Source of the DNA: Telmatocola sphagniphila
GTDB lineage: Bacteria; Planctomycetota; Planctomycetia; Gemmatales; Gemmataceae
Assembly: GCF_018398935.1 (NCBI RefSeq)
Contig: NZ_CP074694.1
Span: forward strand, 2,790,001 to 2,822,000
Length of the DNA: 32,000 nt
Direction: 5' to 3'
Below the pieces are notes generated by a model. It did no database searches, was not told the DNA's origin, and was given only the letters and a program-made list of their open reading frames with translations. How positions within the stretch are numbered: the first letter of the stretch is position 1; each line of letters opens with the position of its first letter. Both the position numbers and the translations under genes were made by a program. Shown one piece after another: positions 4,625-30,756 of the stretch.

Positions 4625-6166
4625 TTGAAGAAATCGGCGTGGCTCTATCTCATCCTGGCCGGCCTGCTGGTTCCCGCGGCCATCGTCCAGGGTCAGCAGA
4701 AAAAGCTCTTTCGCTGGGGGGGCGATAAAGCGGGCGGTGCTCCCTTCATTTTCGACGCCGTGGAAAACGGAGTGGAAAAGCAGCTGGGATTCGAATCCGA
4801 ACTGGCGGAGTACTTCGCCGGGCAACTGGAGCGCGAAGCCAAATTCGTCCAGGCGGACTGGGATACCCTGCCTCAGGTTTTGAATCGCGGCGGCGATGCC
4901 AGCGAAATCGATGTCGCCATGAACGGCATTGAATTCTCCAAGGACCGCGCGGCCCAGGGGACCGTTCCCTATTTCATCTACACCTTGCGACTGATCGTGC
5001 GGACCGATTCTAAAATCGCAAATTGGGACGATTTGAAACCGGCCGAAAACGGCAGAAAATTGCGGGTCGGGGTGTTGCGTGATACCTTTGCCCATAAATA
5101 TCTGACCGATCATTTCGAAGATCTCATAGAGATCGTTCCGACGCGAGAAGTGGTCGAGGCCTTCCAGTTGATGGAACAATCCGACGGTTCGCGGATGGAT
5201 GCCTGCGTGCAGGATTCCCCCTGTGCGAATTATTACATCGCTGGGGGCCGTTATCCCAAGCTGAAAATCGTCGCCGAGCCGCGAGCCAAGAACTACTACA
5301 TCATACTCACTCGCGAAAACGATGTGGAATTGCGCGAAAAGCTGAATCAGGCGATCAAGGCAGCATCCGATTCCGGGCTGCTGGAAAGGATCTATCGCAA
5401 ATACAATTTGTGGGATGAAGATCAGGCCAAATTAGTTCAAACTCTGCGAAGCCCCTGGCCACCCGAGGAATCGGAAGCGATCAGTAAGCGAACTCTGGGA
5501 AGCCTGCAATCGAAAATTCTGAGCGCTCTCTGGATGACCGTGGCACTTTCGTTCCTGGCGATGCCGATTGCCATCGCTCTGGGCATCCTGATCGCAATCG
5601 GTCGCGTTTACGGATCCTGGATTCTGCGCTTTCCGCTGGCAGTTTACGTCGAAGTGATCCGGGGTACTCCACTATTGTTGCAGATATTTGTGATCTACTA
5701 CGTTCTACCCGACTTGGCGAAAGCCACCGAATCCAAAATTCTGATGGAATTGGCCGCTTTTCCAGCGTTCTTCGTGGGGGTAATCGGGCTGGCAATCAAT
5801 TACTCGGCCTACGAATCGGAAATCTATCGCGCGGGGATTCAATCGATTCCTCGCGGTCAGATGGAAGCGGCACTCAGCCTGGGACTTCGCCGGGGACAGG
5901 CCATTCGACATGTGATTCTGCCTCAGGCGATTCGACTGGTGATACCGCCCGTAACCAACGATTTCATCAATATGTTCAAGGATACCTCCGTCTGTTCCAT
6001 GATCATGATTACCGAATTGACGGGACTGTACTATCAGAACAAGTCGGATCAGGTTCTGGCCTACCAGCTCGCGATAGTGATTGCGATACTCTATATGGCA
6101 CTCAGTTACCCGTTATCCCTTGTTGCTCGGGGGCTGGAAAACCGGCTCCGGAAAGCCATGGCATGA
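4625..6166 (+). CDS. Polar amino-acid ABC transporter, fused substrate-binding domain + permease
   Basis: TTG start followed by a signal peptide (MKKSAWLYLILAGLLVPAAIVQG). A family-3 solute-binding domain occupies about aa 25-290. A HisM/GlnP-type membrane domain follows, with the EAA loop EAALSLGLRRGQAIRHVILPQA. Confidence 0.85.
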   Translation: MKKSAWLYLILAGLLVPAAIVQGQQKKLFRWGGDKAGGAPFIFDAVENGVEKQLGFESELAEYFAGQLEREAKFVQADWDTLPQVLNRGGDASEIDVAMNGIEFSKDRAAQGTVPYFIYTLRLIVRTDSKIANWDDLKPAENGRKLRVGVLRDTFAHKYLTDHFEDLIEIVPTREVVEAFQLMEQSDGSRMDACVQDSPCANYYIAGGRYPKLKIVAEPRAKNYYIILTRENDVELREKLNQAIKAASDSGLLERIYRKYNLWDEDQAKLVQTLRSPWPPEESEAISKRTLGSLQSKILSALWMTVALSFLAMPIAIALGILIAIGRVYGSWILRFPLAVYVEVIRGTPLLLQIFVIYYVLPDLAKATESKILMELAAFPAFFVGVIGLAINYSAYESEIYRAGIQSIPRGQMEAALSLGLRRGQAIRHVILPQAIRLVIPPVTNDFINMFKDTSVCSMIMITELTGLYYQNKSDQVLAYQLAIVIAILYMALSYPLSLVARGLENRLRKAMA

Positions 6167-7980
6167 CCGAACCCGAACCGCTGTTACGCACGCTCGCTCC
6201 GCTCTTGGGAAATCTCGCCTTAGAATTGCAGAATTGGAAGGATTCCCGGCAGAATTTTCCACTCAGTCTGGTCGCGAAATCGACCGTGGAAGGTCTGCTA
6301 CAGGACTTGCGGCGACGCTCCGAGGCCCTGCAAATCGAGCGACTCAGTCTAGTAATCGCTTTCATGGGCGGCACCGGCGTCGGGAAATCCTCCCTGCTCA
6401 ACGCCCTGGCCGGTTCGCCCATCGCCGCATCCTCCGTCACTCGACCAACCACGCGCGAGCCTGTGGTTTACTACCATCACTCCCTGCGACCTGAGAATCT
6501 CGATCCCGCCCTGCGCCATTGCCGTTTGGTTTCGCACGATCGGGAAAAACTGCACGAAAAAATCCTGGTCGACACTCCTGACCTGGACAGCAACGATCTG
6601 GAAAACCGCGAACGGTTGCTGGCAATCCTACCCATCGCCGATATTGTCCTCTACGTCGGTTCGCAGGAAAAATATCACGATAAACTTGGCTGGGATCTCT
6701 TCAAACAACAAAGGGAGAGATCGGCCTTCGCGTTCGTTTTGAACAAATGGGATCGTTGTCTCCATAACATCGCCAACGGCATGCGTCCCGATCAGGATCT
6801 CATCCGCGATTTGAAGCAGGAAGGATTCGAGAATCCGATTCTGTTTCGCACCATGGCGGCCGCGTGGGTGGAGAATCCCGATCGGACCACCCCGCCAGCT
6901 GAGAATGAGCAATTTCAGGAACTGGTGCTCTGGATAGAAAACGGGCTGAATAAGCTGGAAATCGAAGCCATCAAGGCTCGTGGCATCGGCCAGCTATTGA
7001 CTCAGCTCGAAAAGACACTTCAGGAGTCGATGCCCCCGGACTGGTCGATCCCGGCCCAGAATATCCAACTCACCTGGAAAGGACTTTTCGAGGAAGAAGC
7101 CGAGCAGTCCGCCGATCAATTGATGCAGACGCTCGATCGGCATCAACTGGAAATCGAACACCATTTCCGCGTCGAAGGGCAGCAGCGTTTCCGGGGCTTG
7201 ATGGCCGCGTGGCTGGGATTGTCGACCAAGGTTCGAACCATGGGAAGTTCGCTTCGAGATCAACTACCGATTCCGCGCAATCCACTGAGCAAGTCAGTCG
7301 AGGCTGAAAAACCGAATCTGACCTATCTCATTCAAGCTTGCGTTAGTTCCACAGGCGAGAAAGTGTTGGAAAAACGCCTGGAAGGGCTCGCCAACCGGTT
7401 GCTCGTATCGGCCGATCAGGCGGGAATCGCTGCCAACCAGATCAACGCACCAATCACCGAGAGCCGCAAGGAACAGGGAGCCGCGCTGTATGAAAAATCG
7501 CTGATGGCGGCGTGGCAGGATCTCGATTCGGATCGCTCATCTCCCAGTGTACCCAAGCATTTGTTGCAAACGGGTGTGATTCAGGTGGCCAACTTTTTAC
7601 CCGGTATCGTTCTGATTGCCGGATATCTGTACCTGATGTGGAACTTCTTCGTACTGAACACGCAGCCCTCGCTTTTTCAGGTGATTTTACCCGTACTGTT
7701 AACGTTGATAGTGATTCTGCTTTTGCAGTTGGTTGTGAGTTGGGTTCTTCCCTTCAAATGGACGGCGGTCCGGGAAGAGTTCCGCAGGACCATACTTGAG
7801 AAAACCAGCCGCGATCTCCAGCTCGCCTTTGGGGACATACCCGAACAACTCAGTTCCAGGATTCTTCTTGAGCGGCAGAAAACCGAAACCATGCTGAAGA
7901 ATACCCAGGATGTCAGTAATTGGCTGGCCAGCCGGGAAAATGCAATCGCCGTACGCGACCTTTATGGCAAAACGGAATAG
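6163..7980 (+). CDS. Membrane-anchored dynamin-like P-loop GTPase (paralog 1)
   Basis: The ATG overlaps the permease stop (ATGA at 6163-6166). G1 is GGTGVGKSS (aa 69-77), G3-like is ILVDTPDLD (D137..D140), and G4 is NKWD (aa 194-197). A BDLP-like ADIVLYVGSQEKYHD segment is present. Two hydrophobic helices lie at about aa 471-531, followed by a roughly 70-aa tail. Confidence 0.75.
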   Translation: MTEPEPLLRTLAPLLGNLALELQNWKDSRQNFPLSLVAKSTVEGLLQDLRRRSEALQIERLSLVIAFMGGTGVGKSSLLNALAGSPIAASSVTRPTTREPVVYYHHSLRPENLDPALRHCRLVSHDREKLHEKILVDTPDLDSNDLENRERLLAILPIADIVLYVGSQEKYHDKLGWDLFKQQRERSAFAFVLNKWDRCLHNIANGMRPDQDLIRDLKQEGFENPILFRTMAAAWVENPDRTTPPAENEQFQELVLWIENGLNKLEIEAIKARGIGQLLTQLEKTLQESMPPDWSIPAQNIQLTWKGLFEEEAEQSADQLMQTLDRHQLEIEHHFRVEGQQRFRGLMAAWLGLSTKVRTMGSSLRDQLPIPRNPLSKSVEAEKPNLTYLIQACVSSTGEKVLEKRLEGLANRLLVSADQAGIAANQINAPITESRKEQGAALYEKSLMAAWQDLDSDRSSPSVPKHLLQTGVIQVANFLPGIVLIAGYLYLMWNFFVLNTQPSLFQVILPVLLTLIVILLLQLVVSWVLPFKWTAVREEFRRTILEKTSRDLQLAFGDIPEQLSSRILLERQKTETMLKNTQDVSNWLASRENAIAVRDLYGKTE

Positions 7981-9749: not shown

Positions 9750-11489
9750 ATGCCGGAATTTTATGCCGCCCGAAACTCTTTCCTGGTACCGTTGGGACTG
9801 GCGGCCCTGCTGACGGTCGTTAACGCTCTGAAGCCAGTCGTGGTGGACGACACGGCTTATCTGATTTTTGCCCAGCAAATCGTCGCTACTCCCTTGCAAC
9901 CTTACGGGCCAGCGCCCGGAACCGAGATTTGCTGGTATCAGCAGGCCGAACCGGCGTTCGAAATTTTGCTGCCGCCGGTGCTGCCTTACTGGCTCAGTCT
10001 TGGTATGCACCTTTTCGGGGAATCGATTCCTTTATTGAAGCTTTGGATGTTCCCATTCGCCTGGTTATTTTCGAGCTCACTTGCTTTTATCCTCGGCAAA
10101 ATCGTACCCGGATTTCGCATCGAAGGATTATTGCTCCTTCTCCTCTCCCCTACCTTTTTGCCCAGCATGAATTTCATGCTCGACATACCGGCCCTGGCTC
10201 TCGGGCTGACCGGAATTCGAGTACTTTGGGACGCCAAATCGGACTACAAAGCCATCCTGTCCGGGCTGATTACCGGCCTGGCCATGCAAACCAAATACAC
10301 TGCCTTCAGCATTCCCTGCATCCTGTTGCTGATGGGCCTTTTCATCGGTTCGCTGCGTTGCAGCATCCTGGCCATTACCACTGCGGCTGCACTGTTCTGC
10401 GGTTGGGAGTTGTACGTCTATCGGATCTACGGCCATTCCCATTTTCTGTTTCATGCCCTAGCGCAGAACGATAGTCTGCAAGGCGTTTTCTTTGAAGAAA
10501 AATGGAAGCTGGCGCTTGCACTGATCGGCAATCTCGGGGGCCTTTTTGCCGTTCCCTCTCTTGTCGGCTGGTTGGCTCTGGGATTCGGCAAAAGATTCGC
10601 TTACATCGGGCTGGGCTTAATCGGCTTGTATGTCCTGGCGCTCATCGGATTTCCGGATTCGATTTATGTACTCAAAACCGGCGATGAAGAAGAGCATGGA
10701 CGGCTGACCATAAATTCGCTTAGCCTGATGTGCCTGGGCACCAGCAGTGCCTTGGCGGTTCTTGGCAGTGCATTCAAACTGGGAATTTCGCAGCGACCGG
10801 ACGCTGCGAATCGTTCTCTCGATCGATTTTTAATTCTCTGGCTGTTTGTCGAACTCGGCTGCTATTTCGCTCTGACCCCCTTCCCGGCCAGTCGGAGGCT
10901 GATGGGGTTAGTGGTGATCGGCACTCTGGTTTGTTTGAGAGCTTTCCAATTGCGATTCGGAGCTTTGCCAAAGCCGAATTGTTTGAGATATGTCGTTGCG
11001 GCAGCCGTGGTAATTGGCTTTTTCTTTGCCTTCGTCGATCTGATGGATGCTCACGTTGAAAAGAATGCCATTGAAGAAGCGAAAGAATGGATTTTGCAAC
11101 AACCCGATCACGAATTTCCCATCTGGTTCGCCGGGCATTGGGGGGTGCAGTGGTATGGGCGGGAAGCCGGAATGAAGGAACTCTGGCCGGAAAAGTCTTT
11201 GGTTCACCGAGGGGATTGGGTGATTCTGCCTAAAGGATTGTGGCGGCCTTCAACCCAGGCGGTGAAAATTGACCCGGCGCTGCTTCGCTTAAAAGAAATC
11301 CCGATTACTCGGCTGGCCTATGGGATTTCACTACCGATTCACACGCCGCTGCCGAATACGATTTCCACCTATTACGGCGGAAAATATCCGATAAATCGGC
11401 TGACGGGACCTCGCGTTGTGCTGATCGTCTATCGGGCCGAGCACGATTTCGAGGTCCGTTCTCGAGCCAGTTCCGAAGTCGAAAAGTGA
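9750..11489 (+). CDS. GT-C fold glycosyltransferase (ArnT/PMT_2-like) integral membrane protein
   Basis: There are at least 10 predicted TM helices. The first-loop acidic motif is VVVDDTAYL. PMT_2-like segments include PPVLPYWLSLGMHLFGES and GLITGLAMQTKYTAF. A C-terminal soluble domain follows. Confidence 0.65.
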   Translation: MPEFYAARNSFLVPLGLAALLTVVNALKPVVVDDTAYLIFAQQIVATPLQPYGPAPGTEICWYQQAEPAFEILLPPVLPYWLSLGMHLFGESIPLLKLWMFPFAWLFSSSLAFILGKIVPGFRIEGLLLLLLSPTFLPSMNFMLDIPALALGLTGIRVLWDAKSDYKAILSGLITGLAMQTKYTAFSIPCILLLMGLFIGSLRCSILAITTAAALFCGWELYVYRIYGHSHFLFHALAQNDSLQGVFFEEKWKLALALIGNLGGLFAVPSLVGWLALGFGKRFAYIGLGLIGLYVLALIGFPDSIYVLKTGDEEEHGRLTINSLSLMCLGTSSALAVLGSAFKLGISQRPDAANRSLDRFLILWLFVELGCYFALTPFPASRRLMGLVVIGTLVCLRAFQLRFGALPKPNCLRYVVAAAVVIGFFFAFVDLMDAHVEKNAIEEAKEWILQQPDHEFPIWFAGHWGVQWYGREAGMKELWPEKSLVHRGDWVILPKGLWRPSTQAVKIDPALLRLKEIPITRLAYGISLPIHTPLPNTISTYYGGKYPINRLTGPRVVLIVYRAEHDFEVRSRASSEVEK

Positions 11490-11556: not shown

Positions 11557-14049
11557 TTACTTGGGAAGGAACGGACTGCCCTTGAACTCGAATTTTTCCA
11601 GATAAACATGCTGGCGATCGCCCCGTTCGTAAAGATCCTCCAGCATAACCCCCAGGTTGGGTTTTAATGGCTTGCGCTCGTTGTTCCATTCCTTGCCGTT
11701 AATGACAATTCGAATCGGTTTATCCAGCTCGAATAATCCTCGCGGAACAGAGACCGTCAACTGACGGAAACCGACCGCGTCGATCCGGACCATGTTACCT
11801 TCCATCGCTTTGGCAGCAATCCGCGCCGGCACGAATTCGCCGCGAGGATTCCTTTCCAAAGTCTTCCCCGGCATGATTTCACTGGTGCTGACCCAGTAAA
11901 AGTGGTTGTCTTCCTGGCGCATGGTACGGAAGTCCGTTCCCTCCGCCCCCAAACCCGGTGTTCCGAAACCGGGCAGACCGTTGGTGCGTTTCTTCCGGAC
12001 CATCCAGTCGAACATAAAGGGGAGTTCCTGGAAAAAGAATTCGGGATTCCGCCCCTTGTAAGCGACCGCTAACACGGGAAATCCTTTATTCATCCAATTT
12101 TTCAGGGTCATCTGAATCGTCTTCGCCGTGTCATCCCCCACACGGTCGGCGAGGATCAGATAGAGCGGCAACTGCTGCACATTCTGCCAATATTCTCGGA
12201 GCACAAGTTTGCTGGGACTGGCCGATTTGGCCGCAAAGACCCGGGCACTCGGGAATGGGCACATCGCCGTAACCCCGGCAAACAAATCGGGATGGGAGAG
12301 TCCGACATCGTAAGCCATGTTGCCGGCCTCGTTGCAGCCAAAAAGAAAGACTCGATCGGAATCGATTTGAAGGAATCGCTCCAGATGCGAAATTAAAGCG
12401 GGGACAACTCCTCGTTCATCATCGGTGAAGGTATAGGTAGCGCGGATGCCGCCATTCCAAACGGGCACGGCGACGATATACCCATAACGCGCCGGTAAAT
12501 TGCCGAATTTTTTGATCAAATCTTCCGGTTTCTCATTTCCATCCGGGAGCAGGATCAAAAGTGGTGTACGTCGGGCGAAATGGTATTCCGGAGGCAACTG
12601 AAGTGCAAAATCGACCCCTTTGGGATAGTTCTTCACTGGGCCTGTATTGTACATCTTGATGGCCGTGGAGAAATCTTTGTTCTCGTACGGTGGCGGCATC
12701 AGGGAAATGATCTGAGCCAGTTCATCGATCGGGGGCAGCAGAGCGTTCTTTTCCAGTTTGCCCAGGAGCGTCAGTCGGTCGCCTCGGGTATCCGTGCTCA
12801 GATAGCTCTTGAGAAGTTCCCGCGCATCCCAGAGTTTCTTGGCAGCCGCCGATTTGGTTTCGGCCGAGGATTTACCTAACAGCCAGCCAGTGACCGCGAG
12901 GGAGAGTAACTCCTCCGGCTTATAGGTTGTCGCCCGCCCTTGGGCGATATCTCTTTCCACCTGATCGGCCATGGCCACGAAAGTGTCCAGGCGGGAAATC
13001 GAATCGGGGTGCAATTCTCGCTGAATGACCTTCGCCGCCCCAATGAGAAAGCGATCCGCTTCAGAAAATTGTAATTTGCTGAGCTTTTCCAAATGCAGTT
13101 GAGCCTTTTCGAGCTTTTGCATTTGCGCTTCAAATTCCGCCTTGAAGGTGCTGTATTTCAAAGTCTGCGGAGCCGGGATACCTTCTTTAGGGAATTCAGG
13201 CAACTTCTTACGCAGAGCCTCGTATCGACCGCCGGAGCGGAGGATGTCCAATTCCTGCAGATACAGATCGGCCTGGGCGGACAGCAGCGATTTACGCATG
13301 TCCGCAACAGACTGTTTATCGTCCGGCAGAGCCTTGGCCAAGTCGTCGATCTCTTTCTGAGCATAATCGAACCAGTTCGCCTGGATGAGAAACAAAATCA
13401 GCTTCTTGCGCTTGGAGGCTTCCGGTTTACCAGCTTCTTCTTTTAGATCGGGGTGATGCCTTAGCAGCTTGAGGACTTTCTCCGGCCCCCATTCCTGAGT
13501 CAGATAGGAAGCCCCCCATTTATGGCTGGAAGAATCGATGCGAATGAAATGGGGCGTGAGGGTTACAATCTGTTGCTGAAGATCGGCAATCCACCTTCCA
13601 TTCGAGAGGGAATAGACCGGCACTTTACGCATCCAACGGTCGTCGTAATCGATGTCTTTCTTGGGGGCGACGTCGAAATCGATGGGATTTTTCAGACCAC
13701 CGGAAACAAATTTGGTCCTTAAAGTCACAAAGTCAGCGAAGCGATTGAAATCGCTCGAATCCCCAAGTTGACGATAATTGGGACTAAAAACGGTGATCCT
13801 CCCCCCATCATCCACTTTGTGAAAGCCGGCTTTGATGATAAAGCTCTCCCCGGTGGTGGGATCCACTTCGACGACACTATCCTTAAATACTTTACCGTGC
13901 AGGGTATAACCATCCTTGAGGATCACCACATCCGCTCGGGAAGACTTCGGAGCATAACTTACGAGCAGAAGAGCCAACCCTAAAAAAGCGATGGAACGGA
14001 AGATTGGATTCAGCCACGCATTCTGAGATTGGTTGGAGGGAAACGTCAT
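11557..14049 (-). CDS. Secreted or membrane-anchored 830-aa protein: N-terminal beta region, helical repeat middle, C-terminal alpha/beta-hydrolase-like domain lacking catalytic residues
   Basis: N-terminal signal or anchor (IFRSIAFLGLALLLVSYA). The C-terminal part follows the esterase/PHB-depolymerase pattern (LLILLPDG..YIVAVP..DSDRVFLFGCNEAGNMAY..HPDLFAGV). At the nucleophile elbow, however, it has GCNEAG instead of GxSxG. Confidence 0.7.
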   Translation of the reverse strand: MTFPSNQSQNAWLNPIFRSIAFLGLALLLVSYAPKSSRADVVILKDGYTLHGKVFKDSVVEVDPTTGESFIIKAGFHKVDDGGRITVFSPNYRQLGDSSDFNRFADFVTLRTKFVSGGLKNPIDFDVAPKKDIDYDDRWMRKVPVYSLSNGRWIADLQQQIVTLTPHFIRIDSSSHKWGASYLTQEWGPEKVLKLLRHHPDLKEEAGKPEASKRKKLILFLIQANWFDYAQKEIDDLAKALPDDKQSVADMRKSLLSAQADLYLQELDILRSGGRYEALRKKLPEFPKEGIPAPQTLKYSTFKAEFEAQMQKLEKAQLHLEKLSKLQFSEADRFLIGAAKVIQRELHPDSISRLDTFVAMADQVERDIAQGRATTYKPEELLSLAVTGWLLGKSSAETKSAAAKKLWDARELLKSYLSTDTRGDRLTLLGKLEKNALLPPIDELAQIISLMPPPYENKDFSTAIKMYNTGPVKNYPKGVDFALQLPPEYHFARRTPLLILLPDGNEKPEDLIKKFGNLPARYGYIVAVPVWNGGIRATYTFTDDERGVVPALISHLERFLQIDSDRVFLFGCNEAGNMAYDVGLSHPDLFAGVTAMCPFPSARVFAAKSASPSKLVLREYWQNVQQLPLYLILADRVGDDTAKTIQMTLKNWMNKGFPVLAVAYKGRNPEFFFQELPFMFDWMVRKKRTNGLPGFGTPGLGAEGTDFRTMRQEDNHFYWVSTSEIMPGKTLERNPRGEFVPARIAAKAMEGNMVRIDAVGFRQLTVSVPRGLFELDKPIRIVINGKEWNNERKPLKPNLGVMLEDLYERGDRQHVYLEKFEFKGSPFLPK

Positions 14050-17108: not shown

Positions 17109-18890
17109 TCAGCGATTCTTCAGCAAATCGACAATCTGCTGCAACCGGCCGGCGATTCGCTTTTCAATCTGGCTCAATCGTTCGAAATCGGAACCTTCCG
17201 TCACCGGCCAGGATTTCAGCTTTTCCTGGAACGGTTTCAGAATCATCTTATCCAGCATCAGGAGCCGGTGAGCCCGCAGCTGACGGCGCTTGGAATCGAT
17301 GTAAAAATGAATCCCCAATTCGAAGAGGGCGTGCACCGCCGAAACCAGCAAGGGAATTAATAACAGCGTCCACCAGGACCAGCCGCCAATGACGACCGCC
17401 GCGATCACGGCACTCAATTCCAGAACGACCTTGAGAACCCGCAGAAAATTCCAGACGTTCGAGAGCCCTTCGAGCGGCTCGATCAGGGAACGGCTGACCT
17501 GGGTGATTTCTTCGTTGGCGGAGGTTCGATAGGGTTCCACTGCCGACTTGTACACAGAAAGGCATTGATCCCCCAGTCCGCTCTGAAATCCCTTGGCCAG
17601 ATGGTCCCAGAAGGGATGGAGACTCGCATCTCGGACGACCGCGGCCCGCACATGGTCGAGCCATTGTTGCAAGCCGCGATTGATGACGTCCGATTCCTTG
17701 AATCCGGCACCGTCCGGCCGGGACAGCATTTTCTGGAAGAGCTGACGAATTAATTGATAAGGCTGCCTTAGGACCCAAAGCACCACCGAAAGCCATTTGG
17801 CATTTCCTGGCAGATCGAATTTCTGCAGCATTTGCTCCGGCGTGACCTTCAAGCCAGTCACCGAAGAACTGATGCCGAACTCCCGTTCGTACGTTTTCTC
17901 GAAATCGTTTTTGGAATCATTAACCAGGGAATCCCAGGTCGATACCAGTTTCAGATCCCGTCGCCCCATCTCGATGATGCTGGGTAAGGTCGCTTCCAGA
18001 AATTGCACGCCGCGATCAACCGTACGAGCTTTGGCTTCTTTCTCCGGTTCGAGCAACACCGTCATTTGATTGAGCAAAGCGATCCGATATTCACTCGCTT
18101 TTCCAAGCGGATCATCGAGCACATCGACGCTAAGGAACGGAATCGTCACCAGGGGCACTTTATCGGCCTGACTGCCCAGAATTTCCTGTTGAAAGTGCTG
18201 GGAGATCGAAGGGGCATCCGTCGCTCGCATCTTTGTGAGGCAAACGACTACCGCTTTTCCGGCCGATAGGACCTGCTTCAAAAATCGCGTGGGAATCGCG
18301 TCGTTATAGCGCTCGTCGGATGCGACGAATAAGACGAGATCGGCCAGAGCCAGAATCTCAATCACTCGCCCGATATAGTTCTGTGCGGCCCAGGTCGTCA
18401 CGTCCGGGCAGTCCCAGATGACGCAATTTTCGGGCAAGGGGGACTGTTGAAATTTTACCTGCCGAAATTGATAGACATCTTCATCCAGGCTGGCGGGCAG
18501 AGGACCATCTTGTCGTTTCAATTTACCGAGAAAACCAAGCGTTCCCCAGGAAGCGAGAATGCTTGGGGAGAGACTGCCGAACCCAATCGGGTGACGAGTA
18601 TAACCGGCCTGGGCATTCGATTCGGTAACTTTCGAACCGACTACGAAATTGACGACCGTACTCTTCCCGGTCCCCGCTCCCCCCACGACCGCAATGTGTA
18701 GAGGCTGGTCCGAGTTTTTCTCAATGGCTGGGCCCAGAGTATTGCGCACGAGGGCGTCGGCGAAACGGAGTTCCGTACCTGCCTTCTCCTCGCCGACGCG
18801 GCTGACCTGATATTGATGCAACCAGGCGAAATCTTCTGCCAGGTCGGACACGAGATGACGTTGATCGGTCGGGGTCGATGCGGTTTCCAT
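17109..18890 (-). CDS. Membrane-anchored dynamin-like P-loop NTPase (paralog 2, degenerate G4)
   Basis: Collinear with the protein at 6163..7980. G1 is GGAGTGKST (aa 70-78), VIWDCPDV carries D160..D163, and ADLVLFVASDERYND is present. CLTKMRAT sits where the paralog has NKWD. A hydrophobic hairpin lies about 60-130 aa from the C terminus. Confidence 0.75.
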   Translation of the reverse strand: METASTPTDQRHLVSDLAEDFAWLHQYQVSRVGEEKAGTELRFADALVRNTLGPAIEKNSDQPLHIAVVGGAGTGKSTVVNFVVGSKVTESNAQAGYTRHPIGFGSLSPSILASWGTLGFLGKLKRQDGPLPASLDEDVYQFRQVKFQQSPLPENCVIWDCPDVTTWAAQNYIGRVIEILALADLVLFVASDERYNDAIPTRFLKQVLSAGKAVVVCLTKMRATDAPSISQHFQQEILGSQADKVPLVTIPFLSVDVLDDPLGKASEYRIALLNQMTVLLEPEKEAKARTVDRGVQFLEATLPSIIEMGRRDLKLVSTWDSLVNDSKNDFEKTYEREFGISSSVTGLKVTPEQMLQKFDLPGNAKWLSVVLWVLRQPYQLIRQLFQKMLSRPDGAGFKESDVINRGLQQWLDHVRAAVVRDASLHPFWDHLAKGFQSGLGDQCLSVYKSAVEPYRTSANEEITQVSRSLIEPLEGLSNVWNFLRVLKVVLELSAVIAAVVIGGWSWWTLLLIPLLVSAVHALFELGIHFYIDSKRRQLRAHRLLMLDKMILKPFQEKLKSWPVTEGSDFERLSQIEKRIAGRLQQIVDLLKNR

Positions 18891-26451: not shown

Positions 26452-27909
26452 ATGTTCGAAGGTATTCAACGGGGCCTGACCGACGCTTTCAAAAAACTTC
26501 GGGGTCGGGGCAAACTGACTGCCGATAACGTTCGCGAAGGTTTAGGCGAGGTTCGCAGAGCTTTACTCGAAGCCGACGTGAACTTCAACGTCGTCAACGA
26601 ATTCATCGAAAAGGTGGAAGCTCGCTCCGTCGGACAGGAAGTCCTTTCCCGCGTTGACCCTTCCGAACAGATCATCAAGATCGTATTCGACGAATTAGTC
26701 GCTCTCATGGGCCCCGTCGATCATCGCATTCCTTTTGCCAAGGATCGCCCCACGGTCATCATGATGTGCGGTTTGCAGGGAGCCGGTAAGACGACCACTT
26801 GCGGCAAGCTGGCCCTCAAGCTAAAAGCTCAGAACCGTAAAGTTTTGCTGGTTGCTGCTGACTTACAGCGCCCGGCTGCCGTCGAACAGCTCAAAGTCAT
26901 CGGTGGACAGACCGAAACGCCGGTTTATACCGAGGCGACTAATCCAGTCGATGTCTGCCGCAATGCTGTGAACTACGCGAAGATGCAGAATCTCGACACG
27001 GTGATTCTCGATACGGCCGGCCGACTGCATATTGACGAGGAGTTGATCGAAGAACTCAAGCAGATCGACAAGTACGTTAAGCCCGATTCCGTTTTCCTCG
27101 TTTGCGATGCCATGACGGGCCAGGACGCCGTCAATTCCTCCAAGGCGTTCCACGACGCCTTGGAACTTAACGGCGTTATTCTGACGAAACTGGACGGTGA
27201 CGCTCGCGGCGGGGCCGCCCTGAGCATCCGCCAGGTGGCCGGGGTACCGATCAAATTCATCGGCATGGGCGAAAAACTCCAGGCTCTGGAGGACTTCCAC
27301 CCCGAACGCATGGCCAGCCGTTTAATGGGCCAGGGCGACCTGATGGGGTTGGTCGAAAAGGTTTCCCGAGTTCAGCAGGAAATCAGCGAAGAGGAAATCA
27401 AAAAGCAACAGGAGAAACTGGCCAAGGGCAGTCTCACGCTGGAGGATTTTCGGAACCAATTTGTTCAACTTCAAAAAATGGGAATGAAAGACATGATCGG
27501 CATGATGCCCGGCATGTCCGATATGATTCCCAAGGGAGAAGATCCCGAAGTCGCTCTCAAACGAGTTCAGGGAATGATCGACTCGATGACAATGGAGGAA
27601 CGCCGCAATCCGGATTTGATCGATATCCCTCGCCGACGGCGAATCGCGGCGGGCAGTGGCGTTCAGCCCCATGAAGTGAATCAGTTCCTGAAGCAGTTCG
27701 AAGTCGTGCAGAACGTCTTCAAGCAGATGTCTCAGATGAGCATCTGGCAGAGGATGAAGATGATGACCGGCCTGGGCAACATGGGGGCGTTCATGCCCGG
27801 CGGCGAAAATCTTCTGAAACAGATTGGCAAAAAAGGAGACACGGGTCACCGCAAAACCGCCAAAGAACGTGCCGAAGAACGCAAAAAGAAGAAGAAAAAA
27901 GGCCGTTAG
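26452..27909 (+). CDS. ffh: Signal recognition particle protein Ffh
   Basis: N domain, then a G domain (GLQGAGKTTTCGKLA, DTAGR, TKLDGDARGG), then a Met-rich M domain and a basic tail. Confidence 0.97.
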   Translation: MFEGIQRGLTDAFKKLRGRGKLTADNVREGLGEVRRALLEADVNFNVVNEFIEKVEARSVGQEVLSRVDPSEQIIKIVFDELVALMGPVDHRIPFAKDRPTVIMMCGLQGAGKTTTCGKLALKLKAQNRKVLLVAADLQRPAAVEQLKVIGGQTETPVYTEATNPVDVCRNAVNYAKMQNLDTVILDTAGRLHIDEELIEELKQIDKYVKPDSVFLVCDAMTGQDAVNSSKAFHDALELNGVILTKLDGDARGGAALSIRQVAGVPIKFIGMGEKLQALEDFHPERMASRLMGQGDLMGLVEKVSRVQQEISEEEIKKQQEKLAKGSLTLEDFRNQFVQLQKMGMKDMIGMMPGMSDMIPKGEDPEVALKRVQGMIDSMTMEERRNPDLIDIPRRRRIAAGSGVQPHEVNQFLKQFEVVQNVFKQMSQMSIWQRMKMMTGLGNMGAFMPGGENLLKQIGKKGDTGHRKTAKERAEERKKKKKKGR

Positions 27910-27937
27910 TTACTTAAGGCCTTCCGAGGGAATTTTG

Positions 27938-27983
27938 AGGCTGGGGGATTCTTTCAAAGGAGATCCTCCAGCCTGCATTTTTT
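27938..27983 (+). terminator. Rho-independent terminator after ffh
   Basis: AGGCTGGGGGAT (27938-27949) pairs with ATCCTCCAGCCT (27963-27974) with one mismatch and a 13-nt loop, followed by GCATTTTTT. Confidence 0.6.
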
Positions 27984-28049
27984 AATCCTCCCGAGTTCAG
28001 AACGAGTGCCCTTCCTATAATGACAGCTTGTCTCCCAGGAGCTTTTTGA

Positions 28050-28298
28050 ATGTCTGCCGACTCGTCGTCTCGGTTCGCGGTCAAATTGCATCGTAAAGTC
28101 TGTCTGGTCTGGACGGAAGATGTTTTGCTGGCCGAGGAGATGCTGGCTCGCAAAAAGCTAGCCCCGGAGATTGCCGGGCGGCTGACCGATCAGATTCTGC
28201 TGATTCGCCCGGGCCGCGTCGATGCCGTCGTCGCGGAACTCCAGGCGATGGGTCAAACCCCCCGTGTCGTATCTAGCTCCTCAGCCAATCCGGAATAA
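28050..28298 (+). CDS. Small 82-aa protein resembling the linker segment of XPB-helicase N-terminal regions
   Basis: AGGAG lies 8 nt upstream of the ATG, and TATAAT is at 28016-28021. LLAEEMLARKKLAPEIAGRLTDQILLIRPGRVDAVVAELQAMGQTP parallels my recollection of the bacterial XPB segment (..VLEEVLRNKKIAP.LGARIDDDTVIVHPSERG.VKQLLLKIGWPA..). Confidence 0.55.
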   Translation: MSADSSSRFAVKLHRKVCLVWTEDVLLAEEMLARKKLAPEIAGRLTDQILLIRPGRVDAVVAELQAMGQTPRVVSSSSANPE

Positions 28299-28305
28299 TT
28301 TCGAT

Positions 28306-30396
28306 ATGTCGTCGGAAACGAATGCCTCGGATGTGGAAGCGATTCTGACTCGCTATTCCGAATCCCTGCTCCGCAAAGTTGCAGATAAACTTCTCAAACC
28401 ACGCAGCACCTGGCCCATTGAGGATGTCCGCCAGAAGTGCGTGGAAGGTCTCCAAAATCCCATATTGATCGATCGCCGGTTGAAAGATCTTCCGGAGGAT
28501 TGCCGCAAACTTCTCAAAATGGTGAAGGTCAGCAACCAGTCTCTCTGGAGGATCGATCATCTGATTCAATGCCTCGCCAGTCTGGGGCATATTGATGGCA
28601 TCCAACCGGTCCTGAACCTTCTGGAAAGCGGACTAATTTTTCCCGATCTGACATTAGTGACCAATAAGCTCAAAGCCTTCGAGGATTGGCTGGGCCTGTC
28701 GGGAATGCTGTTATCTATTGTCTGGGTACCCAACTCCGTTACCGAGCGATGTGCGGACTTTCCGCTCGGCTTGCCGAACCTGGAAGGCATCTCGGTCGGA
28801 AAAACCCCGGGGGTGGTTGTCGATGGCTGGGAATGGCCGTTGCGGATTGCCGCGGCCTGGCAGAAACTGGATGGCACAACGCTGAAAGTAGCTCAATCCG
28901 GCACCTATTACAAGCGCGAACTGACTAAACTTCAAACCGATTCCGTCCTGAATTCGGCCTTTGCCGTGCCTCTGGTGACTATTCCCGAACCGGGAGTTCT
29001 CGCATTCTCATGGGCCCGACTCCTGGGCATGTTCCGCACCGACAAAACGGAGATTATCTCCCTCGGCTTCAGCGAGATTTGGAAGCAGGATCTGGGAAAT
29101 CTCCTCAAGCGATGTCTCGCGGAGATGCTGCGAATCGTCGATTGGAATCCTGTGGATGGCTATGCGCCGGAAACCGTGGAAGCGGCCACGCCATCGATTT
29201 CCTTATTGATTTTGCTCCTGTTGGCGGAGGTGAAGCCGGATCGGGCCGTTTCCGTGGACGAATTGCAGAGATTTATCGAGGAAAAGCATCCTCGCTGCCA
29301 GGGATCGACACAGGTTCACGCCTACATTCGCGGCCTGATTTACGGCGTCTTCGTCCAGTTACGCATCGTCGAGTTGTTCAATCGACCGGAGGCCGATCTG
29401 ATTCGACTGAGCGATATGGGACGCTGGATACTGCTCGGCGAAAAGAAGCCGGATTTATCTCCCCCTTTCACGCAAACGCTAACCGTTCAACCCAGCGGGG
29501 AAATCATTCTGTTCCGCCAGCACTTACAGGTGTCGCTGGTTGCGGATCTTTCGAGCTTTGCCGTCTGGAAGACCATCGGCTCCGCCTGCACTCTCGAAGT
29601 CGACCCCGATCGTCTCTATCGCGGGCTGGAATCGGGACTGACCTTCACCCAGATCGTTCAGACACTCGAAAAATTTGGCATGTACACGCTGCCGGGCACA
29701 GTCCGCGATTCGATTGGACGCTGGGCCAACAAGTGGGAGCGGGTGACAGTCTTTGCCTCGGCCACTCTGATCGAATTCGTGAAGCCGGAAGATCTGGAAG
29801 ATGCTTTTCGCCGCGGCCTGGTCGCCCAGAAACTGACCGACCGGATCGGCCTGTCCGAAAAAGCCGAGCTGGATTACAAGCACTTTCGATTACTCGCCAA
29901 TCGCGATTACGAGATGCCGCCGCAGCCCTGCGTGGAATTCGACGAAGACGGATTGACCTTCGATGTCATCAGCACTCGGGCCGATTTACTTTTGGAAGCC
30001 GAATTGAAACAACTGTCGGAAGCCCTGCCTTTCAACGGCAATTTCGAACGGCGCCGGTATCGCTTTACGCTCGAACGCTTTCGCAAGATGGCGGATGCCG
30101 GCTGGAATTTGGAGATTCTGGATCGCTGGTGCCGCGAACGAAGCGGCCAGAGCGTTTCCGCCTCGGCCAGCTTACTGTTCGCGCCGCCACTGAATCTCAG
30201 TCTGTCGGCGATCGAAAAATTGGTGATCGCCCTTCCGAGCGATCACATTGCCGATGCCTTGATGCAGTGGCCCACTACGCATCATCTGATCGAGGCTCGT
30301 CTCGGGCCTCGCATGCTGAGTGTCAGCGCCGAAAAGATCGGCGCTTTGAAAACCGAATTGCAAAAGATCGGCATCGAATTGAAACGCGAACTGTAA
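28306..30396 (+). CDS. 696-aa XPB-N-terminal / TFIIH-p52 (Tfb2, Helicase_C_3)-like protein without a motor domain
   Basis: The start is placed at ATG 28306, 7 nt after the small ORF's stop. The track's 28222 extension is Arg-rich junk that overlaps the upstream gene. One module, LTVQPSGEIILF...LEVDPDRLYRGLESGLTFTQIVQTLEKFGMYTLPGTVRDSIGRWANKWERVTVF, follows the pattern shared by p52 and the XPB N-terminal domain. A second, shorter copy is RYRFTLERFRKMADAGWNLEILDRWCRERSGQSV. No Walker A or helicase motifs are present. Confidence 0.6.
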   Translation: MSSETNASDVEAILTRYSESLLRKVADKLLKPRSTWPIEDVRQKCVEGLQNPILIDRRLKDLPEDCRKLLKMVKVSNQSLWRIDHLIQCLASLGHIDGIQPVLNLLESGLIFPDLTLVTNKLKAFEDWLGLSGMLLSIVWVPNSVTERCADFPLGLPNLEGISVGKTPGVVVDGWEWPLRIAAAWQKLDGTTLKVAQSGTYYKRELTKLQTDSVLNSAFAVPLVTIPEPGVLAFSWARLLGMFRTDKTEIISLGFSEIWKQDLGNLLKRCLAEMLRIVDWNPVDGYAPETVEAATPSISLLILLLLAEVKPDRAVSVDELQRFIEEKHPRCQGSTQVHAYIRGLIYGVFVQLRIVELFNRPEADLIRLSDMGRWILLGEKKPDLSPPFTQTLTVQPSGEIILFRQHLQVSLVADLSSFAVWKTIGSACTLEVDPDRLYRGLESGLTFTQIVQTLEKFGMYTLPGTVRDSIGRWANKWERVTVFASATLIEFVKPEDLEDAFRRGLVAQKLTDRIGLSEKAELDYKHFRLLANRDYEMPPQPCVEFDEDGLTFDVISTRADLLLEAELKQLSEALPFNGNFERRRYRFTLERFRKMADAGWNLEILDRWCRERSGQSVSASASLLFAPPLNLSLSAIEKLVIALPSDHIADALMQWPTTHHLIEARLGPRMLSVSAEKIGALKTELQKIGIELKREL

Positions 30397-30402
30397 AGCG
30401 AA

Positions 30403-30756
30403 TCAAGAAACCCACTCAGGCGGTGGGGCGATCGCATCGGTCGGTCGCTTTCCGGCGTCCGGTCGGCCGCTGGTTTTCAGGTGATTAAGCACGCGAACGG
30501 TCATGTCCCCTTCACACTGAATCTGGCAGCTCAGTCGTCCGGATGTAATCCCCCTGGCCTGCAGGATTTCCTTTTCCGCCTTGGTCCATCGACTGGGTTC
30601 CCCGGAAACAAATTCGACCCGACACGTGGTACACCGGGCGTTCCCGCCGCAGGCATGCAGGGCATCGACGCCGGCTTCATCCGTAATGGCCAGGATTAAT
30701 CGCTTGCCTTCGGGCACTTCCACCGCAGGTCCATTTTCGATAATTAACTTCGGCAT
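30403..30756 (-). CDS. 2Fe-2S ferredoxin
   Basis: The start is moved to ATG 30756, which has GGAG about 8 nt upstream followed by an A-run. The Cys pattern is C-x5-C-x2-C-x31-C (HACGGNARCTTCRV ... LSCQI). The track's 56-aa N-terminal extension has no support. Confidence 0.8.
   Translation of the reverse strand: MPKLIIENGPAVEVPEGKRLILAITDEAGVDALHACGGNARCTTCRVEFVSGEPSRWTKAEKEILQARGITSGRLSCQIQCEGDMTVRVLNHLKTSGRPDAGKRPTDAIAPPPEWVS

What the first reader, a model, noticed from the sequence alone, without database searches (positions are those of the whole stretch)
28050..30396. Helicase-less XPB-N-terminal / TFIIH-p52-like two-gene operon
An 82-aa ORF (good AGGAG RBS, a TATAAT upstream, and preceded by the ffh terminator) is followed 7 nt later by a 696-aa ORF. 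By eye, the small protein matches the linker that joins the N-terminal domain of bacterial XPB (ERCC3/Rad25-type) helicases to the motor domain. The large protein contains at least two copies of the module shared by the XPB N-terminal domain and TFIIH p52/Tfb2 (Pfam Helicase_C_3 type): a beta strand, then hLThxxhxxAhxxGhoxxxIhxxLxxxSxxxhPxxVxxxIxxW. To my recollection such proteins normally sit beside, or are fused to, an XPB-like SF2 helicase. Here neither protein has Walker A/B or helicase motifs. The flanking genes are ffh upstream and a convergent ferredoxin 6 nt downstream, so no motor is encoded nearby. Either the helicase partner acts in trans, or this adaptor scaffold has been repurposed.
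Basis: partly seen in the sequence, partly recalled or inferred. Interest (0 to 1): 0.65.

Follow-up and report, generated by a model that had tools for sequence, protein, structure and literature searches.

The report
Bacterial p52–p8-like partners of XPB
These two genes encode bacterial look-alikes of p52 and p8, the proteins that hold and switch on the XPB DNA motor in the human repair/transcription factor TFIIH; the motor gene is not lost, it sits elsewhere in this genome.

Summary
An 82-aa ORF (28050-28298) lies 7 nt upstream of a 696-aa ORF (28306-30396). They sit between an ffh terminator and a convergent ferredoxin gene, and the window encodes no helicase.

The large protein is a full-length structural homologue of TFIIH p52/Tfb2. 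Its AlphaFold model has pLDDT 90, and the top 21 Foldseek PDB hits are all p52/Tfb2 (best E 4.6e-9). It contains two XPB-N-terminal-type (Helicase_C_3) modules.

The small protein is best read as a p8/Tfb5 homologue. Its family profile picks yeast Tfb5 as the top five of 177,635 PDB sequences (E about 0.02), with a matching fold pattern.

"Helicase-less" describes only local gene order:
- In 46 of 80 Gemmatales species the order is XPB→small→large.
- Other species have XPB→small with the large gene elsewhere, or small→large alone as here.
- An intact XPB (P0306, named Telmatocola sphagniphila) lies on a contig of the same length as the one carrying the window's small gene (6,592,641 bp).

Both genes are under purifying selection, so the most likely reading is a three-subunit XPB–p52–p8-like translocase that assembles in trans. 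I found no paper describing it. The physical interactions are inferred, not shown.

The parts
27936..27983 (+). Intrinsic terminator of the upstream ffh gene (hairpin 27936-27977 plus a U-run); it marks the 5' boundary of the operon
   Evidence: RNA fold of 27915-27995 gives -30.1 kcal/mol, with a long stem followed by UUUUUU. The simple terminator scan missed it.
28016..28021 (+). TATAAT hexamer, a possible -10 element (unproven)
   Evidence: Seen in the sequence. No -35 partner was found, and the sigma-70 scan found 0 promoters in 27700-30700.
28037..28041 (+). AGGAG ribosome-binding site, 8 nt before the ATG of the small gene
   Evidence: Sequence.
28050..28298 (+). Small gene, 82 aa: p8/TTDA/Tfb5-like subunit (predicted β-α-β-β-α-β fold)
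   Evidence: 372 homologues; the 120 best listed are 60-83% identical to the query. dN/dS is 0.09-0.14. The AF2 core has pLDDT about 80, with β18-21, α25-33, β41-44, β49-52, α57-66, β72-74. The family profile against PDB sequences gives yeast Tfb5 as the top 5 hits, E 0.016-0.023, covering Tfb5 residues 4-56. hhalign against Tfb5 gives probability 65%, E 6e-5. Foldseek places Tfb5 chains among non-significant ferredoxin-like hits, but with the highest identity and TM-score (3dgp_B: 28% identity, TMt 0.63).
28306..30396 (+). Large gene, 696 aa: TFIIH p52/Tfb2-like scaffold subunit
   Evidence: AF2 pLDDT 90.1, pTM 0.73. The top 21 Foldseek PDB hits are all p52/Tfb2 (8ebt_D E 4.6e-9, about 540 aligned columns; p52-p8 crystal 6trs_B E 7e-7), followed by XPB chains. 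Profile against PDB sequences: best hit Tfb2 residues 338-468, E 0.07. Pfam: Helicase_C_3 in 58/58 family members, Tfb2 in 7/58.
28306..29475 (+). N-terminal about 390 residues of the large protein: helical and winged-helix-like region, probably corresponding to the p52 NTD and middle domain 1
   Evidence: Inferred only. The Foldseek alignments to p52 chains of 428-460 residues span 534-555 columns, so they very probably extend into this region, but the tool does not report which query residues are aligned. There is no sequence-level hit to p52 for this region.
29479..29814 (+). Helicase_C_3 (XPB-NTD/p52 'clutch'-type) module 1, residues 392-503
   Evidence: Pfam PF13625, E 7.4e-8. Aligns to Tfb2 residues 338-468 and to XPB NTD residues 58-111 (hhalign E 1.8e-4).
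29932..30180 (+). Helicase_C_3-like module 2, residues about 543-625
   Evidence: hhalign of residues 413-467 against 565-622: probability 89%, E 2e-6. XPB NTD residues 44-95 against residues 567-620: probability 79%, E 1.6e-5.
30211..30393 (+). C-terminal βαββα domain, residues 636-696: candidate p52-CTD equivalent and docking site for the small protein
   Evidence: AF2 secondary structure E638-642, H646-659, E662-667, E670-674, H678-687. Weak profile similarity to the small protein (E 0.003-0.006) and to XPB residues 119-174 (E 5e-4). The pairing with the small protein is inferred.

Best explanation
The two genes encode the non-catalytic subunits of a bacterial three-protein XPB translocase. 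This complex mirrors the XPB–p52–p8 module of eukaryotic TFIIH.

The 696-aa protein is a p52/Tfb2 homologue. Its Helicase_C_3 ('clutch') module or modules would pair with the homologous N-terminal domain of XPB. Its C-terminal βαββα domain would pair with the 82-aa p8/Tfb5-like protein. Together they would cradle the second RecA lobe of XPB and tune its DNA-dependent ATPase and translocase activity, as p52/p8 do in TFIIH (PMC6422496, PMC7708078).

In most Gemmatales the three genes form one operon, XPB→small→large. In the lineage of this window (very probably Telmatocola sphagniphila) a rearrangement separated the small→large pair from XPB. XPB remains intact elsewhere on the chromosome, so the complex would assemble in trans.

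Shown here: the homology of the large protein to p52, the gene linkage in relatives, an XPB in the same genome, and purifying selection. Inferred: the p8 identity of the small protein (moderate support), all physical contacts, and the biochemical effect on XPB.
For: - Large protein = p52: the Foldseek top 21 PDB hits are all p52/Tfb2, E down to 4.6e-9 over about 540 columns, from a pLDDT-90 model. The best PDB sequence hit of the family profile is Tfb2. Pfam Tfb2 is the second most frequent family among members.
- Small protein = p8/Tfb5: yeast Tfb5 takes the top 5 of 177,635 PDB sequences (E 0.016-0.023; the next hit is E 0.75). Only 10 Tfb5/p8 sequences exist in that set, and yeast against human p8 itself scores only 27 bits. 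hhalign gives probability 65%, E 6e-5, with a reversed-sequence control at E 0.24. The predicted β-α-β-β-α core fits.
- Linkage: 46 of 80 species loci have XPB→small→large on one strand. XPB→small also occurs without the large gene, and small→large without XPB (window, L006, L007, L014, L046, L095). The small gene therefore travels with either partner. No conserved fourth gene was found.
- The gene-order types are interspersed on the tree of large proteins.
- XPB in trans: P0306 (580 aa, all XPB Pfam domains) lies on a 6,592,641-bp contig, the same length as the contig carrying the window's small protein P0121. Likewise P0258 lies on the 6,489,944-bp chromosome that carries the XPB-less locus L014.
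- dN/dS is 0.09-0.23 in the unlinked clade.
Against: - No interaction was modelled or measured. The structure tool folds one protein at a time, so it could not model a complex.
- The small-protein evidence is marginal at each single level: PDB E about 0.02, Foldseek best E 0.28 (all hits generic ferredoxin-like folds), and no Pfam Tfb5 hit in 119 members.
- The window's own large protein falls just under the Pfam Helicase_C_3 cut-off and has no Tfb2 hit.
- The bacterial protein is about 200 residues longer than p52 and has a duplicated module. Bacteria are not known to have p34, p44 or p62 (my own knowledge; I did not search for them), so the N-terminal half must do something other than what it does in TFIIH.
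- The identity of the window's chromosome with the contig carrying XPB rests on equal contig length, not on a sequence overlap.
Confidence: 0.65

Rival explanations
1. The pair has become independent of XPB in this lineage. Once unlinked, the p52-like scaffold and its small partner were repurposed to serve another enzyme or to bind DNA on their own.
For: The arrangement without XPB is conserved in the window's deep clade: the window, L006 (68% identity) and L007 (51% identity). 26 of 80 species carry the large gene alone. The N-terminal about 390 residues have no known bacterial partner.
Against: XPB is retained intact in the same genome, and also in the other complete genome with an XPB-less locus. 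The gene orders are interspersed on the tree rather than forming a diverged clade. The clutch-type modules and the C-terminal domain remain conserved, with dN/dS 0.16-0.23. Unlinked genes for the subunits of one complex are common in bacteria (general knowledge).
Confidence: 0.12
2. The small protein is not a p8 homologue. It is a free-standing copy of the βαββα domain that follows the N-terminal domain in bacterial XPB, and it acts for example as a competitor or as a DNA-binding add-on.
For: hhalign aligns the small family with XPB residues 124-171 (E 0.009). XPB residues 119-174 also align with the C-terminal domain of the large protein (E 5e-4). XPB residues 44-176 align with residues 567-695 of the large protein (E 1.3e-4, probability 53%). 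The three domains may therefore be paralogues.
Against: The similarity to Tfb5 is stronger (hhalign E 6e-5, probability 65%, against E 0.009, probability 4.5%) and spans the whole Tfb5 core. The two readings are not exclusive if p8, the p52 C-terminal domain and this XPB domain share ancestry.
Confidence: 0.15
3. The two ORFs are decaying remnants of a former XPB operon, or a mobile or anti-phage defence cassette.
For: XPB is missing from the locus. In some relatives toxin-type genes (RES domain) are inserted into the operon.
Against: Both reading frames are full-length and align with homologues from end to end. dN/dS is well below 1. The family is found in 229 species genomes, with orthologous rather than patchy distribution. 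There are no PADLOC hits. The flanking genes are housekeeping genes: ffh, ferredoxin, dnaK, tmk, holB.
Confidence: 0.02

Closest known systems
Eukaryotic TFIIH XPB–p52(Tfb2)–p8(TTDA/Tfb5) module
   Same: - A three-part set: an XPB helicase with a Helicase_C_3 N-terminal domain, a large scaffold with a homologous 'clutch' domain and a C-terminal small α/β domain, and a partner protein of about 70-80 aa.
- The large protein matches p52 structures over nearly their full length.
- The small protein's best PDB sequence match is Tfb5.
- The Telmatocola XPB is much closer to yeast and human XPB (323 and 313 bits) than to archaeal XPB (151 bits).
   Different: - The genes are bacterial and arranged in, or derived from, an operon.
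- The scaffold is about 200 residues longer and has two clutch-type modules.
- No p34, p44, p62 or XPD partners were looked for or found nearby.
- Sequence identity to p52 is only about 10-15%, and Pfam Tfb2 and Tfb5 thresholds are not reached.
- The function in bacteria is unknown: RNA polymerase II transcription does not exist there, so a role in repair or another DNA transaction is presumed.
Bacterial 'helicase-associated domain-containing' / 'Helicase XPB/Ssl2 N-terminal domain-containing' proteins (Pfam PF13625 stand-alone proteins)
   Same: This is the name database pipelines give to the window's family and its relatives in Gemmataceae, Zavarzinella and Isosphaera pallida. The window's protein is an ordinary member, with 30-68% identity to the 120 homologues listed.
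   Different: That annotation covers one domain only. It does not recognise the full-length likeness to p52, the second module, the C-terminal domain, or the unannotated small partner gene.
Archaeal XPB–Bax1 helicase–nuclease pair
   Same: A prokaryotic XPB with a dedicated partner encoded next to it, which modulates its ATPase activity (review PMC13024598).
   Different: Bax1 is an XPG-related nuclease that binds the thumb and HD2 regions of XPB (review PMC13024598). Here the partners have no nuclease or other enzymatic Pfam domain and resemble p52/p8. Archaeal XPB lacks the Helicase_C_3 N-terminal domain that the partners here mimic: PMC3353954 notes that eukaryotic and bacterial XPB share an N-terminal domain that appears absent from Archaeoglobus fulgidus XPB. 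I did not test this here.
Actinobacterial XPB (e.g. Mycobacterium tuberculosis Rv0861c)
   Same: A characterised bacterial XPB of the long, eukaryote-like type with an N-terminal domain (PMC3353954).
   Different: [quoted passage not shown] Whether the gene next to mycobacterial XPB (Rv0862c, from memory) belongs to the present family was not tested here.

Membership tests
TFIIH p52/Tfb2 | Overall multi-domain fold of p52 (NTD, middle domains, clutch, CTD) | tested here: met
   The top 21 Foldseek PDB hits are all p52/Tfb2 chains, E 4.6e-9 to 1.3e-3, with 320-565 aligned columns and probability 0.98-1.0. The model has pLDDT 90. TM-scores are low (0.16-0.22), as expected for flexible multi-domain chains.
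TFIIH p52/Tfb2 | Sequence match to Pfam Tfb2 (PF03849) / Tfb2_C (PF18307) above threshold | tested here: not met
   The window protein has no hit at E≤1. Tfb2 is hit weakly in 7 of 58 family members (best E 7.8e-4) and Tfb2_C in 1 of 58 (E 0.037). The family profile against PDB Tfb2 gives E 0.07.
TFIIH p52/Tfb2 | A 'clutch' domain homologous to the XPB N-terminal domain | tested here: met
   Pfam Helicase_C_3 matches residues 392-503 (E 7.4e-8) and all 58 of 58 relatives scanned (best E 1.4e-20). hhalign to XPB NTD gives E 1.8e-4 for module 1 and E 1.6e-5 for module 2.
TFIIH p52/Tfb2 | Physical and functional association with XPB | tested here: inconclusive
   Gene linkage with XPB is seen in 46 of 80 species, and XPB is present in the same genome. 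Binding and ATPase stimulation cannot be tested with these tools.
TFIIH p52/Tfb2 | C-terminal domain that heterodimerises with p8 | not testable with these tools
   A βαββα C-terminal domain is present, with weak similarity to the small protein (E 0.003-0.006). No complex prediction was available.
p8/TTDA/Tfb5 | Small (about 70 aa) protein with a β-α-β-β-α split α/β fold | tested here: met
   The protein is 82 aa. The AF2 model shows β18-21, α25-33, β41-44, β49-52, α57-66 plus an extra β72-74, with core pLDDT about 80. Foldseek lists Tfb5 chains (3dgp_B: TMt 0.63, rmsd 2.5 Å, 28% identity), but all E-values are ≥0.28.
p8/TTDA/Tfb5 | Sequence similarity to Tfb5/p8 | tested here: inconclusive
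   Profile against PDB sequences: yeast Tfb5 takes the top 5 hits, E 0.016-0.023, 18 bits, covering Tfb5 residues 4-56. hhalign gives probability 65%, E 6e-5. However, there is no Pfam Tfb5 hit in 119 members, and human and Chaetomium p8 are not hit at E≤10.
p8/TTDA/Tfb5 | Encoded or acting together with a p52-type partner | tested here: met
   The small gene lies directly upstream of the large gene in the window (7-nt gap). It lies between XPB and the large gene in all 46 XPB-linked species loci, mostly within about 250 nt of the large gene, although four loci have inserts that widen the gap to 546-2015 nt. It lies upstream of the large gene in 8 further species loci.
Pfam Helicase_C_3 (PF13625) proteins | Score at or above the gathering threshold (34.2 bits) | tested here: inconclusive
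   The window protein scores 32.9 bits, just below the threshold. All 120 listed homologues carry a precomputed PF13625 hit, and 58 of 58 were hit in my scan.
XPB/ERCC3 SF2 helicases | Walker A/B and helicase motifs (ResIII, Helicase_C, ERCC3_RAD25_C domains) | tested here: not met
   Neither window protein has such domains. The genomic XPB P0306 has all of them.

The most novel reading that the evidence does not exclude
Gemmatales (and at least Isosphaera) planctomycetes possess a minimal, three-subunit TFIIH-like translocase: XPB plus true homologues of p52 and p8. The 82-aa protein would then be the first prokaryotic p8/TTDA homologue recognised. The XPB–p52–p8 module would either predate eukaryotes or have been exchanged between eukaryotes and bacteria. 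This would give a simple, genetically tractable bacterial model for how p52/p8 control XPB.
Probability: 0.5. Interest if true: 0.75.

Novelty: new variant of a known kind. Interest (0 to 1): 0.6.

Why it matters
How p52 and p8 regulate the XPB motor is central to nucleotide excision repair and transcription initiation. Defects in these proteins cause trichothiodystrophy and xeroderma pigmentosum.

The published view I could find is that bacteria lack p52 homologues (PMC3353954, 2012) and that the role of bacterial XPB is 'elusive' (PMC13024598, 2026). A conserved bacterial XPB–p8-like–p52-like gene trio would do three things:
- It would give bacterial XPB a defined set of partners.
- It would offer a three-protein system for biochemistry and structural work without the other seven TFIIH subunits.
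- It would bear on the origin of TFIIH.

Tried and rejected
- Single-sequence searches of both proteins against PDB sequences gave only chance hits.
- NCBIfam gave only a sub-threshold XPB-NTD match for the large protein.
- Sub-profiles of the N-terminal 390 residues and the C-terminal 160 residues gave only spurious PDB sequence hits: de novo TIM barrels and the antitoxin PaaA2. The p52 likeness of those regions therefore rests on fold alone.
- A Pfam scan of 119 small proteins at E≤10 gave no Tfb5 hit. It gave weak DUF2336 hits in 22 members, which I regard as spurious.
- Foldseek of the small-protein model gave no significant match.
- The exact-sequence look-up of the 696-aa protein failed. 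The look-up of the small protein returned only a 1.8-kb metagenome contig, so the window's chromosome could not be read directly. I used equality of contig length instead.
- I looked for a conserved fourth gene inside the operons and found none.
- The 514-aa gene downstream of the genomic XPB is unrelated to the p52-like family.
- PADLOC defence models gave no hit for either protein.
- The sigma-70 promoter scan found none.
- Eight full-text literature searches for bacterial p52/p8 or XPB partners found nothing relevant.
I do not use it as evidence.
Full report
**1. What is in the sequence**

- The small ORF is 82 aa and runs 28050-28298 on the plus strand. AGGAG lies at 28037-28041 and TATAAT at 28016-28021.
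- Its stop is followed after 7 nt by a 696-aa ORF, 28306-30396.
- Upstream, ffh (26452-27909) ends in a long hairpin plus a U-run at 27936-27983 (-30 kcal/mol).
- Downstream, a 2Fe-2S ferredoxin gene converges on the minus strand and ends 6 nt after the large gene's stop.
- The ATG at 28306 is the real start. The longer ORF from 28222 overlaps the small gene, and homologues begin at the position of 28306.
- The consensus scan finds no sigma-70 promoter, so the TATAAT hexamer is only a candidate.
- Neither protein has helicase or P-loop domains.
- None of the 20 other large ORFs scanned against Pfam is an XPB or SF2 helicase. They are housekeeping genes such as dnaK, tmk, holB, aroDE, pheA and GTPases.

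**2. The genes are real and conserved**

- The large protein had 122 full-length homologues among the scored candidates; the 120 listed are 30-68% identical to it. Most are unnamed or labelled 'hypothetical protein', and a few are labelled 'helicase-associated domain-containing protein', from Gemmataceae and relatives.
- A profile search of 1.84 billion cluster representatives finds 479 clusters at E≤1e-30 and 3201 at E≤1e-3. One is a 961-aa protein of Isosphaera pallida.
- The small protein has 372 homologues (the 120 best listed are 60-83% identical), no Pfam family and no informative name: most are unnamed or 'hypothetical protein', and two carry a JGI 'YaiI (UPF0178 family)' label.
- Within the window's own clade, dN/dS is 0.09-0.14 for the small gene and 0.16-0.23 for the large gene. 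dS is saturated, so these are rough values.
- The pseudogene-remnant idea is therefore excluded.

**3. Identity of the large protein**

- Pfam gives one Helicase_C_3 (XPB N-terminal domain) match at residues 392-503. It scores E 7.4e-8 and 32.9 bits, just under the 34.2-bit cut-off.
- All 58 relatives I scanned hit that family (best E 1.4e-20). The next most frequent family is Tfb2, in 7 of 58 (best E 7.8e-4).
- An AlphaFold2 model built on a 91-sequence alignment is confident (pLDDT 90.1, pTM 0.73).
- In Foldseek against the PDB, the top 21 hits are all chains of TFIIH p52/Tfb2. The best is 8ebt_D, E 4.6e-9, about 540 aligned columns. The p52-p8 crystal 6trs_B scores E 7e-7. XPB chains follow, aligned over 125-250 columns, which is consistent with a match to the N-terminal region.
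- The family profile's best PDB sequence hit is also Tfb2, residues 338-468, although weak (E 0.07).
- The protein is therefore a full-length p52-like scaffold, not merely a carrier of one domain.
Residues 413-467 match residues 565-622 (probability 89%, E 2e-6). Both match the XPB N-terminal domain, with E 1.8e-4 and E 1.6e-5.
- The last about 130 residues (module 2 plus a βαββα domain) align as a unit with XPB residues 44-176 (E 1.3e-4).
- Sub-profiles of the N-terminal 390 and C-terminal 160 residues find nothing meaningful in PDB sequences. Their p52 likeness is therefore structural only.

**4. Identity of the small protein**

- The model has a core pLDDT of about 80 and the order β-α-β-β-α-β.
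- Foldseek gives only non-significant ferredoxin-like matches. Tfb5 chains are among them and have the highest identity and target TM-score (3dgp_B: 28% identity, TMt 0.63, rmsd 2.5 Å).
- The decisive hint is the sequence profile. Against 177,635 distinct PDB sequences, the five best hits are the five yeast Tfb5 entries (E 0.016-0.023). They cover Tfb5 residues 4-56, essentially the whole fold. The next hit is at E 0.75.
- Only ten Tfb5/p8 sequences are in that set. Yeast against human p8 itself scores just 27 bits, so 18 bits for a bacterial relative is not out of scale.
- hhalign of the family against Tfb5 residues 4-56 gives probability 65%, E 6e-5 and 27% identity over 51 columns. A reversed-sequence control gives E 0.24.
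That similarity is detectable but weaker (XPB residues 124-171, E 0.009, probability 4.5%).
- The same XPB segment also resembles the C-terminal domain of the large protein (E 5e-4). The small protein resembles that C-terminal domain as well (E 0.003-0.006).
- I read this as three related βαββα domains. [quoted passage not shown]

**5. Where is the helicase?**

- In relatives with long contigs the order is XPB (577-590 aa, all XPB domains) → small → large.
- A scan of one genome per species found 229 relatives. The best 80 are nearly all labelled as Gemmatales taxa; a few MAG titles say Alcaligenaceae, Bacteroidales or Singulisphaera, probably mislabels.
- A tblastn survey of those 80 gave three classes:
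  - 46 loci with XPB→small→large on one strand.
  - 8 loci with small→large and no XPB. Four of these have a full 10 kb of upstream sequence, including Zavarzinella formosa and a complete 6.49-Mb chromosome, L014.
  - 26 loci with the large gene alone, 18 of them with at least 5.7 kb upstream.
- XPB→small without the large gene also exists (L093/L094). The small gene therefore stays with either partner, as expected for a bridging subunit.
- On a neighbour-joining tree of the large proteins the gene-order types are interspersed. The window, L006 and L007 form a deep clade that is uniformly small→large. This is repeated operon break-up, not a paralogous family.
- No conserved fourth gene occurs in the operons. 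Inserts such as a RES-toxin cassette are lineage-specific.
- The window's small protein is recorded on a contig of 6,592,641 bp. Searching with a Gemmataceae XPB returned P0306 (580 aa, 77% identity), named Telmatocola sphagniphila, on a contig of exactly that length. It also returned P0258 on the 6,489,944-bp chromosome that carries the XPB-less locus L014.
- P0306 has Helicase_C_3 (E 5e-37), ResIII, ERCC3_RAD25_C (E 3.5e-49) and Helicase_C domains. Its neighbours are unrelated genes: aconitase, a weak Peptidase_MA_2 protein and an MFS transporter.
- In L002, aconitase directly follows the large gene. This suggests that a rearrangement split an ancestral neighbourhood.
- The helicase partner is thus encoded in trans.

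**6. Mechanism proposed**

[quoted passage not shown] The p52 C-terminal domain dimerises with p8, and the assembly cradles XPB RecA2 (PMC6422496). Both p52 and p8 regulate the XPB ATPase (PMC7708078).

By homology I propose the same for the bacterial trio:
- The large protein docks XPB through one or both clutch-type modules.
- The small protein pairs with a βαββα domain of the large protein.
- XPB ATPase and translocase activity is thereby controlled.

The homology and the linkage are shown. The contacts and the effect on activity are inferred. The role of the N-terminal half is open: in TFIIH that half binds p34 and p62, which are not known in bacteria (my own knowledge; I did not search for them). 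The Telmatocola XPB is far closer to yeast and human XPB than to archaeal XPB (323 and 313 bits against 151 bits).

**7. Comparison with what is known, and novelty**

- Database pipelines label the large protein by its one Pfam domain and leave the small protein without an informative name.
[quoted passage not shown] A 2026 review calls the function of bacterial XPB elusive and names no bacterial partner (PMC13024598).
- Eight full-text searches found no description of bacterial p52 or p8 homologues. This is absence of evidence in a partial library, not proof of novelty.
- I file the system as a new (bacterial, duplicated-module) variant of the known XPB–p52–p8 kind.
- The specific 'helicase-less' aspect is ordinary.

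**8. Verdict**

- Observation: confirmed.
- Interpretation: partly supported.
- Best explanation (p52-like and p8-like partners of a trans-encoded XPB): confidence 0.65.
- Interest: 0.6.

Noticed in passing
L093:1785-3757 and L094:2500-4472: A further gene order: XPB→small with overlapping stop and start, and no large gene downstream (the next gene is a convergent ADP-ribosylglycohydrolase). This probably explains the 26 species loci where the large gene stands alone.
   Followed up: partly
L008:7872-9667 (also L009, L010): Three extra ORFs, one with a weak RES-toxin domain, are inserted between XPB and the small gene. Only a 229-250-aa ORF is shared with the sister locus L012, so these are lineage-specific inserts and not a fourth subunit.
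   Followed up: partly
L092:5245-7944 versus L002:12231-14942: An aconitase gene lies next to the unlinked XPB in the window's organism, and directly after the large gene in a relative with the intact operon. This hints that a local rearrangement split an ancestral XPB–small–large–aconitase neighbourhood.
   Followed up: no
P0534 (Isosphaera pallida ATCC 43644, 961 aa): The p52-like family extends beyond Gemmatales to Isosphaera, in a longer form (961-988 aa). Its gene neighbourhood was not examined.
   Followed up: no
window 6163-7980 (+) and 17109-18890 (-): Two roughly 600-aa proteins with MMR_HSR1 or dynamin-N type GTPase domains (possible bacterial dynamin-like proteins) lie 9 kb apart on opposite strands.
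   Followed up: no
window 9750-11489 (+) and 11557-14049 (-): Two long ORFs (579 and 830 aa) have no Pfam match at E≤0.001.
   Followed up: no
window 29010-30488 (+): A 492-aa ORF in another frame lies largely inside the large gene and runs about 90 nt past its stop. It is arginine-, serine- and glycine-rich. I take it to be an alternative-frame artefact of G+C-rich coding sequence, not a gene.
   Followed up: no
alignment A3 (small-protein family): 22 of 119 small proteins give weak Pfam DUF2336 hits (best E 1.9e-4), and eight hit DUF188/YaiI weakly. Both are unexplained and probably spurious. JGI names two members 'YaiI'.
   Followed up: no
L092:11812-13356: A 514-aa protein sits 68 nt downstream of the unlinked XPB. 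It has only a weak Peptidase_MA_2 match and no similarity to the p52-like family. Whether it is co-transcribed with XPB is unknown.
   Followed up: partly
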